Below, in pieces: positions 14,901-17,900 of a stretch of 64,000 bases of DNA (position 1 is its first letter; each line of letters starts with the position of its first letter). Origin of the DNA: Vulcanimicrobiota bacterium. GTDB lineage: Bacteria; Vulcanimicrobiota; Vulcanimicrobiia; Eremiobacterales; Eremiobacteraceae. A program made the position numbers. The stretch spans positions 2,016,001 through 2,080,000 of the forward strand of contig CAWETU010000001.1 of assembly GCA_963812135.1 (NCBI GenBank), read 5' to 3'.

Positions 14901-17900
14901 AGGTGGCGGCCGGCATCGCACTTGTCTGCCTCATGCTCTATGATATTTTCGCCTCGGTTGTTGTGCCCAGAGCGGTGTCGGCGACGTTCCGCACGAGCGT
15001 TCTCGTCGTGCGGGGCTCGTGGCGGCTCTGGCGCGACTACGCGGTCACGATCAAAGACGCCGACAAGCGCGAGGACTTCCTCGGACGCTTCGCGCCGGGC
15101 GTCTTGATCGGATTGCTGATCGTATGGCTCAGCGGCCTGTTGCTCGGATATGGCTTGATCTTCTATGGGCTCCGCGGCCACACCCAACCGCCGCTGCACT
15201 CATACATCGATGCGGTGTATTTCGCCGGGACCTCGCTGCTGACGATCGGCTACGGCGACATCGTCGCCACCGATACGATCGCCCGTCTCTTCACGCTCGC
15301 CGCCGGCGCCACGGGGCTCGCGCTGTTCGCGCTGACCATCTCGTTCATCTTCTCAATCTTCGGATCGTTTCAGAATCGCGAGGTCTTCATCGTCATGATG
15401 GGCGGTCGCGCCGGTGCGCCGCCCTCGGGCGTGACACTGCTCGAGACCGTTTCGAAATACAAAATCTTTGAGGATTTCGCGCAGAGCATGCGCGAGGGCG
15501 AACGCTGGGCGGCGTCGGTGCTCGAGTCACATCTCGCCTATCCGGTGCTCGCGTATTTCCGCTCGAGCCACGATGACGAGTCGTGGATCGGTACGCTCGG
15601 CGCCTTGCTCGACGCGTCGACCATGCTCATCACGCTGACCGACAGTCCGCTCGTCGGGCGCGCGAAACTGCTGCACCTTATCGGCGTGCATCTCGTGCGC
15701 GACCTCACCCGCTATTTCCGCGTTGCTGTGATCGAGACGGCGGGCATCGAGCGTGGCGAATTCGACCAAGCGTGTGCTCAATTGACCGCGGCGGGCTGGG
15801 AAGTGCGATGCGACGACGCGGCATGGAAGAGCTTTTCAGAGTTGCGCATGCAGTACGCCGGCCCGCTCAACGAAATGGCGAAGTTCTGGATGACACCGCC
15901 GTCGCGCTGGATCGGGGATCGCTCGGAGATCGGCAAGCGCATGATGCACGCGGCTTCGTAGGGCAAACCGGCGGGCACCCTGAAGTCTGACACCTCACGG
16001 GGCATCACTCATCCCACATCGGAGTTTCACTCATGCACGTACGTTTTGTCGCGGCGTTGTCGGCGGTCGCCCTCATTTCGGCATTGGCATGCCTGCCCGC
16101 ACCGGCCGCAGCCGACACCACATGGGCAGCCGATCCGGGCCATTCCCTGGCCGAATTCAGCGTGCTCCATCTAGGCGTCACGCATGTGCGCGGCTCAATC
16201 CTTATCAGCCAAGCGAGCGTCGTCACGCCGAGCGGCACTAATGTGCCGTCCTCGATCGTCGCGGCACTCGACCCCGCGAGCATCGATACGCGCAATTCGG
16301 ATCGCGATAACGATCTGCGAGGCCCTGATTGGCTCGATGTCACGCGCTTCAAGACGATGTCGTTCAAGAGCGCGTCAGTGACTGCGGGGCCGAACGACAC
16401 ATTCACCGCGGCTGGCGATTTGACGATTCATGGCGTGACTAAACCCGTGACGCTCGCGGGCCATATCGACGGCACGACCGTTGACGGCAGGGGACATAAT
16501 CGCGTGTCGTACTCAGCGACGACGACGATCAAGCGTCAGGACTTCGGTTTGAGCTGGGCGCAGCAGACGCCGGGCGGCACGTTCGTCGCGGGCGACAACG
16601 TGGACATCTCGATCACCATCGAAGCCGTCGCCCGCTAAGCGGTGTGTCGAGGGATTAAAACCTGCGAGGGCAAACGGAAACATCGTCATCGTGGGATGAT
16701 GGTGAAATCGGAAGACACAACGGACTTCCAATTGGAGCCGGGGGCCGGGAAACCACCTCTGGGATGCGCTCAAAGTCGGTGAACTCTCTGCTCGAAAGAG
16801 CGTGACAACGCCGAGCCAAGCTCCCGAGACGGAGAAGGTGTAGAGACTGGACGGGCGCGACCTACGGCGTGATAGACGCTACGGTCAAGGCACAGTCCGG
16901 ACCACACAAATGCCGTCAGGCAGTGGCGAAAGCCATAGTGGTGCGAAAATCCGTTGCCCGCAAGGGCGTCCGGGTTCGAGTCCCGGTCATCCCATGTTGA
17001 TCTTCTCGCGTAGATAGCCGATCAGTAGGTCGGCTTCGCTGACCAGAGTTGACCGCTTTTGTAGCGGCGCGCGATCTCGTCGAGGATGATAAGCCCGGCC
17101 GGCATGATGTCGGCCCGGAACTCCGGCAATCCATGCAACTGTTTGCGCTGTTCGATCGGCAACGACACCGTCAGCCGAAAAAGATCCTCCAGATCCGCGC
17201 GACGCAACGCTGCGACGTGCACGTCGGAGGCGGCATCGTACGCGTTTAGCATGCGCGCCGCGGTGTCAGCGGTTCCGCCGACAAAGACGAGCTGAGCGTC
17301 CGAGCTTCGCTCGGGTTCTACATCAAACTCAAGCCTTACGGCGGTGCGGCACGCGCTAATCTCTTCCGCCGTCGGCGGATCGTGCTTGAAGAAGCGTTCG
17401 GTCATGCCCACCGCGCCAACCGGCAACGAGCTCACCAGAACGTCGTTGTTCGGGGTGGTTCTGGTCGCGATCTCAGTGCTGCCGCCCCCGATATCGACGA
17501 CCGTGAGCGGTCCGAGCGGCGCGTGACCGGTCTGCTCGAGCGCCCAGCACGCGCCGTCGAACGACGCGCGGGCTTCTTCTTCTCCCGTGAGGATGTGCAG
17601 CTCTGTTCCGGTGATCGCGTGGACCTGCTCGGCGAACTCAGCTGCATTGGTCGCCTCGCGAAGCGCGGCCGTGCCGATGACAAAGCGGCGATCGGCGCGC
17701 CTTGCCAGCCCGGCGAATTCCGCGATGGCGGCGGCGGTCCGCTCCATCGCCTGAGGCGCGAGCAGCTTCGACGCGCTGACGCCTTCACCCAACCGAGTGC
17801 CGCGAATCGCGTGATGTTCGACCGTGATCGGTCGAATAAATTCGACCGCTACATTCTTTTCTGGGACTTGGGCGATCAAGAGCCTGCACGAGTTGCTGCC

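What a model noticed while it worked through the whole genome (the two positions that open the first line are those of the whole stretch)
16692..16995. The cyanobacterial/plastid-type group I intron in tRNA-Leu(UAA), at the same U34|A35 site, in a non-cyanobacterial phylu [...]
The genome seemed to lack tRNA-Leu(UAA) although it uses 1290 UUA codons. The gene is at C1:2032692-2032995(+), missed by ARAGORN and Rfam because a 218-nt ORF-less group I intron (2032728-2032945) splits the anticodon between U34 and A35 - exactly the site of the classic trnL(UAA) intron of cyanobacteria and chloroplasts. The 5' exon ends in U, the intron in G; its core (..TCAAAGTCGGTGAAC.., ..GAGAAGGTGTAGAGACTGGACGG.., ..GGTCAAGGCACAGTCCGGAC.., GGCGAAAGCC) aligns with the tRNA-fMet intron of the same genome. 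Homologous introns sit in the same tRNA in about half of the sampled genomes of the class Vulcanimicrobiia, while others (e.g. G162 of the same genus) have an uninterrupted gene. Toget [...]
Evidence so far: No tRNA-Leu(taa) in rna.tsv, in ARAGORN with introns allowed (it calls a false tRNA-Trp 2032692-2032995 with intron) or in an nhmmer Leu-tRNA profile; 1290 TTA codons in 936 genes incl. ribosomal proteins and aaRS. Intron-less tRNA-Leu(taa) in G162 lies in the syntenic spot between yceI and ppx. Exon/intron borders read from sequence; ARAGORN reads the joined exons as an 86-nt tRNA-Leu(taa). Same split gene, intron 211-218 nt, in G041, G134, G087, G071 (4 of 4 family loci with both exons found; 7 more loci show the 3' exon right after the intron). 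Intron DNA found in 42 of 151 genomes of the phylum, all in two families of the class (5 of 8 and 36 of 71); several of these places had scored as [...]
(Added by a program. Inside this text positions count along the whole contig: contig position 2,016,001 is position 1 of the stretch shown here. "Call 12" and the like, gene names such as g00115 and contig names such as C1 are that model's own, and its searches are not shown. The text may have been shortened before it was handed on; [...] marks where a part breaks off. The agent that wrote the report below was given it as the finding of a first reader that could run no searches.)

Follow-up and report, generated by a model that had tools for sequence, protein, structure and literature searches.

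The report
Self-splicing intron in leucine tRNA gene
The genome's only gene for the leucine tRNA that reads UUA is split in its anticodon by a small, well-conserved group I intron; this is a known, widespread kind of bacterial tRNA intron that standard annotation tools miss here.

Summary
Window 16693-16994 (+) is a tRNA-Leu(UAA) gene. A 218-nt ORF-less group I intron (16728-16945) splits it between U34 and A35, with U before the 5' splice site and G as the last intron base. It is the only Leu(UAA) gene in a genome that uses about 1,500 TTA codons.

A P1-P9 fold with the P7 pseudoknot is strongly supported by compensatory changes: 91% of cells paired against 32-41% in slid controls.

The intron occurs in 164 of 401 sampled genomes of the phylum, all in two families. 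ARAGORN and Rfam RF00028 both miss this clade.

The novelty claim does not hold. In a core-motif sample of public genomes, 57 of 65 same-site Leu(UAA) introns sat outside cyanobacteria, in Proteobacteria, Acidobacteriota, Verrucomicrobiota, Bacteroidota and others. A 2020 preprint lists 5,292 intron-split bacterial tRNA genes.

The best tree places this clade with the non-cyanobacterial Leu and Arg(CCU) introns, apart from the cyanobacterial Leu introns. An AU test cannot exclude a sister relation.

Verdict: a real, probably functional intron and a new member of a known kind. This scan has noted the same kind of intron before on other DNA.

The parts
16693..16727 (+). 5' exon of tRNA-Leu(UAA): acceptor 5' strand, D arm, anticodon stem 5' strand, C32 U33 U34. 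It ends in U.
16728..16945 (+). Group I intron, 218 nt, no ORF, last base G (omega G).
16946..16994 (+). 3' exon: A35 A36 A37 A38, anticodon stem 3' strand, long variable arm, T arm, acceptor 3' strand, discriminator A. No encoded CCA.
16725..16737 (+). P1: exon CUU plus intron C1 (16725-16728) pairs with GGAG (16734-16737). U34 forms the U.G wobble at the 5' splice site. The UU just upstream of GGAG could pair with the first A's of the 3' exon (P10; inferred).
   Evidence: splice-site pair is U.G in 47 of 52 aligned introns
16738..16762 (+). P2 (16738-16744 with 16756-16762) with a GAAA tetraloop (L2) closed by 16747-16748/16753-16754.
   Evidence: 7 of 7 P2 pairs show changes on both sides; GGAAAC is invariant in 32 of 32
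16766..16858 (+). P3 (16766-16771 with 16853-16858), enclosing P4 (16776-16781/16809-16814), P5 and P5a (16785-16805, L5 GAAA), and P6 and P6a (16815-16839).
   Evidence: P3 100% paired with 4 pairs changed on both sides; P4 100% paired
16845..16897 (+). P7 pseudoknot (16845-16849 GACUG with 16893-16897 CAGUC), the helix that holds the guanosine-binding site in group I introns. It encloses P8 and P8a (16859-16886).
   Evidence: P7 100% paired in 52 of 52, and one pair covaries (GC 34, AU 11, UA 6, CG 1), although P7 was not part of the covariance model
16901..16942 (+). P9 three-way domain: P9 (16901-16905/16938-16942), P9a (16911-16914/16919-16922), P9b with GAAA loop (16925-16927/16932-16934). 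Three bases then lead to omega G at 16945.
16033..16638 (+). Upstream neighbour, a YceI-like protein gene. It serves as the syntenic anchor for the tRNA-Leu(UAA) locus in the genus.
17022..17924 (-). Downstream neighbour, a Ppx/GppA phosphatase family gene.

Best explanation
This is the genome's single, functional tRNA-Leu(UAA) gene, interrupted between U34 and A35 by a compact ORF-less group I intron. The intron belongs to the bacterial tRNA anticodon-loop kind (IC3-like).

Inferred mechanism:
1. The gene is transcribed as a roughly 300-nt precursor.
2. The last bases of the 5' exon (CUU) pair with the internal guide GGAG to form P1, with a U.G wobble at the splice site. The core folds as P3-P8 with the P7 pseudoknot, and the GAAA loops of P2 and P9b clamp it.
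3. A free guanosine bound in P7 attacks after U34.
4. The terminal G (16945) then takes that guanosine's place, and the freed 3' OH of U34 attacks before A35.
5. The exons are joined into an 85-86-nt class II tRNA with anticodon loop CUUAAAA.

Within the class Vulcanimicrobiia the intron looks mainly vertically inherited and repeatedly lost, or its gene replaced. It is one clade of a Leu(UAA) intron that is widespread in bacteria.

Shown here: the gene anatomy, the conserved fold, the covariation, the distribution, and that this is the only such gene. Inferred: the splicing chemistry and its self-sufficiency.
For: - **Exons.** They join into a canonical tRNA-Leu(taa).
- **Necessity.** There is no other Leu(taa) gene among 47 tRNAs, while about 1,500 TTA codons are used (rough).
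- **Fold in 32 Vulcanimicrobiia introns.** 90.7% of 2,075 cells are paired against 33-40% when partners are slid. 24 of 66 pairs change on both sides. The covariation score is 0.263 against 0.05-0.08 in the slid controls, and 0 of 500 shuffles reach it.
- **Fold in 52 introns, including 20 from other hosts and tRNAs.** 91.3% are paired, and 49 of 66 pairs change on both sides. P3 and P7 are 100% paired, and the splice-site pair is U.G in 47 of 52. P7 was not in the model that made this alignment.
- **Homology.** The covariance model built from this clade aligns full length (positions 1-231) to cyanobacterial Leu introns at 71-110 bits and to Arg(CCU), fMet and CAU-tRNA introns. RF00028 scores the cyanobacterial ones at 65-86 bits.
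- **Splice sites.** U-1 and omega G are kept in all 92 Leu(UAA) split genes mapped (after dropping 3 false Arg-CCU rows).
- **Exon conservation.** Exons of the split gene are 79-99% identical across both families.
- **Inheritance.** The intron tree roughly follows the families: an f1 group of 10 rows at 94/87 and an f2 group of 17 rows at 99/87.
- **Same site.** The position and mature loop match the 'Leu.3Ug' class described in Williams 2020 (text).
Against: - Splicing was not observed. Soil metatranscriptome contigs from relatives cover only unspliced junctions, and no joined form was seen. Contigs cannot show absence.
- Rfam RF00028 does not score this copy even at E<=10, nor any of 9 clade members at E<=1.
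- P3, P6 and P7 never vary within the 32 Vulcanimicrobiia sequences, so within the clade they say nothing either way.
- P1 and P9a pair poorly in the automatic alignments: 47-56% and 53-67% of cells. I read this as misalignment of length-variable loops, but did not prove it.
- In this copy ViennaRNA prefers a P1 register in which U34 pairs with A rather than G.
- The alignment used was fitted to the structure by the model, which favours it.
Confidence: 0.88

Rival explanations
1. The intron descends specifically from the cyanobacterial/plastid tRNA-Leu intron. Either the two share exclusive ancestry, or it was transferred from a cyanobacterium into Vulcanimicrobiia.
For: The insertion site and mature anticodon loop are the same. 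The overall layout is shared, including a three-way P9 domain with a GAAA loop; the comparison with the Anabaena intron is partly from recall. The AU test does not reject a tree holding the 37-row Vulcanimicrobiia clade and the 9 cyanobacterial-type Leu introns together (p 0.65 on the quick tree; p 0.42 on the careful tree).
Against: The careful ML tree puts the cyanobacterial Leu introns with the fMet and CAU-tRNA introns on one side of a 97/97 branch (40 rows). The Vulcanimicrobiia clade falls with proteobacterial and acidobacterial Leu introns and Arg(CCU) introns on the other (103 rows). Median identity to cyanobacterial Leu introns is 57%, the lowest among the Leu groups; proteobacterial and acidobacterial are 63%. 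Model scores are likewise lowest for the cyanobacterial copies. Both clades sit on long stems (0.64 and 0.73), so either result may be an artefact.
Confidence: 0.15
2. The gene is a dead, intron-disrupted pseudogene, or the intron no longer splices, and UUA is read in some other way.
For: No splicing evidence was obtained. RF00028 does not recognise the intron.
Against: It is the only Leu(taa) gene in a 98% complete genome. TTA codons are in use. Exons and intron are kept with compensatory changes in many genomes of two families. U-1 and omega G are retained in all mapped copies.
Confidence: 0.03
3. The intron is removed in vivo only with the help of a host protein (chaperone or maturase-like factor), or its removal is regulated, so that it controls the supply of the UUA-reading tRNA rather than being a neutral passenger.
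For: The intron is kept in about half of the genomes of two families rather than lost. The same genome also carries an intron in its only initiator tRNA gene.
Against: There is no ORF in the intron and no conserved partner gene beside it; the neighbours are yceI and ppx, and the downstream gene differs in G278. From established knowledge, not tested here, small introns of this kind such as those of Azoarcus and Anabaena self-splice in vitro.
Confidence: 0.1

Closest known systems
[quoted passage not shown]
   Same: The insertion site is the same (CUU/...g/AAAA), with U-1 and omega G. The intron is small and ORF-less and has the same core helices. A model built here aligns full length to cyanobacterial copies at 71-110 bits.
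   Different: It forms its own well-supported clade (98/99, 37 rows). It is only 55-63% identical to cyanobacterial copies, and RF00028 does not detect it while cyanobacterial copies score 65-86 bits. I found no paper on this host phylum. The by-phylum table of Williams 2020 is an image that I could not read, and its supplements were not seen.
Non-cyanobacterial Leu(UAA) introns at the same site in Pseudomonadota, Acidobacteriota and other phyla (loci), and the alphaproteobacterial tRNA-Arg(CCU) introns
   Same: These are the nearest relatives in the ML tree, on the same side of the 97/97 branch. Identity is 56-70%. The 3' ends are very similar (…AGUGGUxCG before the 3' exon).
   Different: The P1 loops and the P5, P6 and P8 tips differ. 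The Arg(CCU) group sits after the anticodon, not inside it.
Azoarcus pre-tRNA-Ile(CAU) intron (IC3; the structural model for this class)
   Same: Both are compact, about 200 nt, with P2 and P9 capped by GAAA tetraloops and a P8 internal loop resembling a tetraloop receptor. This comparison is from recall, not from a call. CAU-tRNA introns of this type from Betaproteobacteria align full length to the model.
   Different: It interrupts a different tRNA at a different site (after the anticodon) and falls on the other side of the main branch of the tree.
The tRNA-fMet group I intron of the same genome (window 54102-54413)
   Same: Same genome and same kind of intron, also in the only gene for its tRNA. 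The core strings are shared.
   Different: It is 312 nt and lies between U33 and C34. RF00028 scores it 69 bits. It is only 54% identical and groups with other fMet introns, the nearest being a proteobacterial MAG (100/99).

Membership tests
Group I intron | P1 helix formed by the 5' exon end and an internal guide, with a U.G wobble at the 5' splice site | tested here: met
   CUUC/GGAG with U34.G. The homologous pair is U.G in 47, C-G in 4 and A-U in 1 of 52 aligned introns. The rest of P1 aligns poorly (56% paired).
Group I intron | Terminal guanosine (omega G) before the 3' splice site | tested here: met
   G at 16945. Kept in all 92 mapped Leu(UAA) split genes.
Group I intron | Conserved core: P3-P4-P5-P6 and P7-P8-P9 with the P3/P7 pseudoknot | tested here: met
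   All helices are placed. 90.7% and 91.3% of cells are paired against 32-41% in slid controls, and 24 and 49 of 66 pairs have changes on both sides.
Group I intron | Match to Rfam RF00028 at or above its gathering score (50 bits) | tested here: not met
   No match at E<=10 for this copy and none at E<=1 for 9 of 9 clade members. Homologous Leu introns of other phyla score 33-86 bits in the same call. I read this as a limit of the model (Williams 2020 notes that none of its seeds is bacterial), not as evidence against membership.
Group I intron | Guanosine-dependent self-splicing | not testable with these tools
   It needs an in vitro splicing assay. RNA contigs showed only unspliced junctions.
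IC3-type bacterial tRNA anticodon-loop introns, class Leu.3Ug | Insertion between the first and second anticodon bases of tRNA-Leu(UAA), giving the mature loop CUUAAAA | tested here: met
   The definition is in the text of Williams 2020.
IC3-type bacterial tRNA anticodon-loop introns, class Leu.3Ug | Sequence and structure homology to accepted members (cyanobacterial tRNA-Leu introns) | tested here: met
   Model R1 aligns positions 1-231 to cyanobacterial Leu introns at 71-110 bits, E 1e-20 to 1e-32.
IC3-type bacterial tRNA anticodon-loop introns, class Leu.3Ug | Formal subgroup diagnostics of IC3 (peripheral elements and junction sequences as in the group I intron database) | not tested
   No subgroup library is on hand. 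The assignment rests on homology to introns that the literature calls IC3.
'Cyanobacterial/plastid' Leu intron lineage in the narrow sense | Exclusive common ancestry with the cyanobacterial and plastid copies | tested here: inconclusive
   The ML tree separates them (97/97). AU tests do not reject joining them (p 0.65 and 0.42). No plastid sequence was included.

The most novel reading that the evidence does not exclude
The Leu(UAA) U34|A35 intron is not a cyanobacterial invention. It would be an old, mostly vertically inherited resident of many bacterial phyla. Vulcanimicrobiia would keep a deep lineage of it, one so diverged that Rfam cannot see it.

Two different routes would have removed it there:
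- Precise loss that keeps the same exons, as in the f2 genomes G011 and G029.
- Replacement of the whole gene at the same locus by a different tRNA that is closer to Leu(UAG), as in 10 f1 genomes including the same-genus G278.

If so, the 'oldest known intron' would predate the cyanobacteria.
Probability: 0.15. Interest if true: 0.6.

Novelty: new member of a known kind. Interest (0 to 1): 0.3.

Why it matters
- **Annotation.** In about 40% of sampled genomes of this phylum an essential tRNA looks missing, because ARAGORN, Rfam RF00028 and, by its authors' own statement, tRNAscan-SE do not handle this intron. tRNA-based completeness and codon-capacity estimates for these mostly uncultured soil bacteria are therefore wrong at this gene. 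A model such as R1 would correct them.
- **Evolution.** The finding adds a well-sampled, deep clade to the tRNA-Leu intron. Reviews still describe this intron as cyanobacterial with a few proteobacterial cases. The clade also offers a natural set of presence, precise-absence and gene-replacement alleles for studying how such introns are lost.
- **Limit.** It does not change what is known about how these introns work.

Tried and rejected
- **RNA evidence.** One run search found 3 soil metatranscriptome runs holding 6-11% of the sampled words. When laid, two runs gave 3 contigs, 95-99% alike, that cross the unspliced 5' junction (16669-16871) and 3' junction (16786-16958, 16923-16995). The third run gave nothing, and no joined form was seen. 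These are contigs of relatives and may include DNA, so they bear on neither transcription nor splicing.
- **Automatic splice-site mapping.** ARAGORN over all U/C-1 and G-omega combinations gave dozens of alternative tRNAs per locus and was unusable as it stood. I kept only the Leu(taa), junction-after-first-anticodon-base, 82-92-nt solution, and dropped 3 rows (L012, L054, L099) whose exon ends show that they are Arg(CCU) genes.
- **First tree.** The quick tree suggested a firm separation from the cyanobacterial introns. The AU test found a better tree with the two held together, so I rebuilt carefully without 9 long or cut rows (L088, L098, L040, L073, L059, L089, L032, L074, L024b) and tested again. 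The question remains unresolved.
- **'Exons and intron always travel as one unit'.** One search suggested this, but rejected it as a general rule: f2 genomes G011 and G029 have the same exon type without an intron.
- **Papers.** Paquin et al. 1997 (PMC179611) is not held. A 2002 J Bacteriol report of a Leu(UAA) intron in a gammaproteobacterium, which I recall, was not found, so it is cited from recall only.
- **Earlier notes of this scan.** There are none for this place.
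Full report
**What is at the site**

Window 16693-16994 (+) reads as a class II tRNA whose anticodon loop is interrupted. The 5' part (16693-16727) carries the acceptor 5' strand, the D arm and the anticodon stem, and ends ...CUU. The 3' part (16946-16994) begins AAAA. It carries the other anticodon-stem strand, a long variable arm, the T arm, the acceptor 3' strand and discriminator A. No CCA is encoded.

Slicing the 218 bases 16728-16945 out in a script gives a sequence that ARAGORN calls tRNA-Leu(taa), 86 nt.

- Without the excision ARAGORN finds no tRNA in the whole window.
- With introns allowed it makes a false call, Trp(cca) with a 208-nt intron.
- Rfam finds no group I intron in 16000-17700 even at E<=10.

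**The gene is needed**

G000 is 98.4% complete in 6 contigs. It has 47 uninterrupted tRNA genes, including Leu cag, gag, tag and caa, but no Leu(taa).

By the established wobble rules, UUA needs a UAA-anticodon tRNA. Removal of the intron is therefore required; this is an inference.

**It is a group I intron**

I placed the helices by hand:
- P1: exon CUU plus C1 with GGAG, with U34.G at the splice site.
- P2, with a GAAA loop.
- P3, P4, P5/P5a and P6/P6a.
- The P7 pseudoknot (GACUG/CAGUC).
- P8/P8a.
- A three-way P9 domain whose P9b carries a second GAAA loop, followed three bases later by the terminal G.

Test on 32 distinct Vulcanimicrobiia copies aligned by MAFFT (A1), reported:
- 90.7% of 2,075 cells form standard pairs, against 33-40% when the 3' partners are slid by 1-3 columns.
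- 24 of 66 pairs change on both sides.
- The covariation score is 0.263 against 0.05-0.08, and 0 of 500 shuffles reach it.
- P3, P6 and P7 never vary in this set, so there they are uninformative.

I then built a covariance model from A1 without P7 (R1). Test on 52 introns that R1 aligned, 32 of this clade plus 20 from other hosts and tRNAs (A3), reported:
- 91.3% of cells are paired, against 32-41% slid.
- 49 of 66 pairs change on both sides.
- P3 is 100% paired, with 4 covarying pairs.
- P7 was not part of the model, yet it is 100% paired and one pair covaries (GC 34, AU 11, UA 6, CG 1).
- The splice-site pair is U.G in 47, C-G in 4 and A-U in 1.

Caveats:
- A3 was fitted to the structure by the model.
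- P1 (47-56% paired) and P9a (53-67% paired) pair poorly in both alignments. I attribute this to their length-variable loops.
- In this copy the thermodynamic fold prefers a P1 register with U34-A. I chose the register that is homologous across the family.
- There is no room for an ORF in 218 nt.

**Distribution in the phylum**

BLAST of the intron against 401 genomes of the phylum finds it in 164. These are f1 13 of 29 plus G000, f2 150 of 297, and 0 of 75 in 19 other families. The tally includes three unpublished genomes (G230, G329, G359); without them it is 161 of 398.

All 29 best non-self loci hold the same split Leu(UAA) gene, with introns of 206-227 nt. Of these, 27 were mapped automatically, and L127 and L150 by eye, L150 being cut by its contig end. 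I did not check which tRNA the weaker matches lie in.

The distribution within genera is patchy: g13 43 of 80, g11 21 of 33.

**Alleles without the intron**

There are two kinds.

1. *A different tRNA in f1.* Ten genomes carry an uninterrupted Leu(taa) gene: G278, G103, G165, G186, G187, G188, G299, G333, G380 and G393.
   - Two further matches, G154 and G211, turned out to be Leu(tag). The G389 match was not checked.
   - None of these ten has the intron.
   - In G211, G116, G128 (unpublished), G185, G232 and G344, neither form was found with these queries. Their completeness is 82-95%.
   - These uninterrupted genes are only 69-74% identical to the exons of the split gene, while split-gene exons are 79-99% identical across both families. 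They are 75-81% identical to a Leu(tag) gene of the family.
   - In the same-genus G278 this different gene sits directly after yceI, as in G000. The upstream channel gene is 62% identical, but the downstream ORF is unrelated to Ppx.
   - In f1, therefore, absence of the intron goes with replacement of the whole tRNA gene.
2. *The same exons in f2.* G011 and G029 have no intron match and carry an uninterrupted Leu(taa) with the same exon type as the split gene. The 11-nt motif found nothing in G018, G024 or G116. This is the classical precise presence/absence pattern.

The intron tree roughly follows the families. Together this favours inheritance with repeated loss or replacement; this is an inference.

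**How unusual is the host?**

I scanned one genome per GTDB species with a 21-nt core motif taken from this intron. Of those copies, 65 are in tRNA-Leu(UAA) at U34|A35 with U-1 and omega G (64 loci, L024 holding two).

| Label (record title or NCBI phylum) | Copies |
|---|---|
| Pseudomonadota | 34 |
| Acidobacteriota | 12 |
| Cyanobacteriota | 8 |
| Vulcanimicrobiota/Eremiobacterota | 5 |
| Verrucomicrobiota | 1 |
| Bdellovibrionota | 1 |
| Binatota | 1 |
| Bacteroidota | 1 |
| No resolved phylum | 2 |

The sample is biased by the motif and is not a census. It does show that the same-site Leu intron is common outside cyanobacteria.

The literature:
- Williams 2020 (whole text read; Table 1 is an image and the supplements were not seen) reports 5,292 group I-split tRNA genes of 21 kinds in 80,413 bacterial genomes. 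It names Leu.3Ug as the classical kind and mentions 72 Leu.3Cg introns in Proteobacteria.
- Reviews still speak of cyanobacteria and a few alpha- and betaproteobacteria (passages of PMC4033280).
- The tRNAscan-SE 2.0 paper states that the program was not designed to detect these introns (passage).
- Two searches found no paper on group I introns in Eremiobacterota or Vulcanimicrobiia in the held library.
- This scan's own notebook lists 99 earlier notes on such introns in at least 87 genomes.

**Relation to the cyanobacterial intron**

- *Identity.* In columns anchored on this intron, identity to other Vulcanimicrobiia copies is 70-87%. To proteobacterial and acidobacterial Leu introns the median is 63%, and to Arg(CCU) introns 63%. 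To cyanobacterial Leu introns the median is 57% (range 55-63%), and to the genome's own fMet intron it is 54%.
- *Tree.* The careful tree has 143 rows and 216 columns, with 9 long or cut rows left out; its bootstrap had not fully settled.
  - It gives a 37-row clade at 98/99, made of 35 Vulcanimicrobiia rows plus L011 ('Opitutus', a 1.8-kb contig) and L079 ('Acidoferrum').
  - A 97/97 branch separates 40 rows (cyanobacterial Leu, fMet and CAU-tRNA introns and others) from 103 rows (this clade, the other Leu introns and Arg(CCU)).
- *AU tests.* They do not reject holding this clade and the cyanobacterial Leu introns together (p 0.65 on the quick tree; p 0.42). Both clades sit on long stems.

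I therefore call the narrow claim of common descent unresolved. A recent transfer from cyanobacteria is unlikely at 57% identity.

**Why the tools miss it**

RF00028 scores cyanobacterial Leu introns at 65-86 bits, Bacteroidia at 62, Acidobacteriaceae at 51 and four others at 33-47. It scores 0 of 9 members of this clade at E<=1. Model R1 scores the clade at 178-242 bits and finds exactly two introns in G000, in Leu and fMet.

**Verdict**

It is almost certainly a functional self-splicing intron in an essential tRNA gene. It is a new member, forming a distinct Rfam-invisible clade, of a known and widespread kind. The point that made it look special, a non-cyanobacterial host, is ordinary.

Noticed in passing
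window 54068-54452 (intron 54102-54413): The genome's only initiator tRNA-fMet gene is also split, by a 312-nt group I intron between U33 and C34. RF00028 scores it 69 bits over 54182-54379. About 80 nt at the intron's 5' end lie outside both models. Its nearest relative in the tree is an fMet intron of a proteobacterial MAG (L076, 100/99).
   Followed up: partly
G000:C1:2367728-2368015(-) and G000:C5:530-817(-) (loci L002, L003): There are sub-threshold RF00028 matches (35 bits) inside both 23S rRNA genes. The LSU match spans 2,099 nt for 1,190 model positions, so the 23S genes hold about 900 nt of insertion, probably one or more group I introns.
   Followed up: partly
L163:2116-2201 (G278) and L173-L183: In family f1 the intron-free tRNA-Leu(UAA) genes are a different tRNA lineage. 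They are 69-74% identical to the split gene's exons and 75-81% identical to a Leu(UAG) gene of the family. In G278 this gene sits at the same place after yceI. This suggests replacement of the split gene, possibly by an anticodon-shifted Leu(UAG) paralogue.
   Followed up: partly
L186-L188 (G029, G011): Family f2 genomes without the intron carry an uninterrupted tRNA-Leu(UAA) with the same exon type as the split gene. G029 has two identical copies, both at contig ends.
   Followed up: partly
L011 (contig DAITQE010000801.1) and L079 (DATHMY010000077.1): MAG contigs labelled Opitutus and Candidatus Acidoferrum carry Leu(UAA) introns that fall inside the Vulcanimicrobiia clade. The exons of L011 are 89% identical to the window's. 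This could be mis-binning or lateral transfer.
   Followed up: no
L024 (JAFEFH010000001.1, 109201-110599): Two intron-split tRNA-Leu(UAA) genes lie in inverted orientation within 1.4 kb of a proteobacterial MAG.
   Followed up: no
loci such as L009, L028, L031, L036, L037, L043, L090, L116: The same core motif lies in introns that ARAGORN places in tRNA-Thr, Lys, Arg(UCU) and Ser genes of several phyla. This is in line with the many extra kinds listed by Williams 2020. I did not map the splice sites precisely.
   Followed up: no
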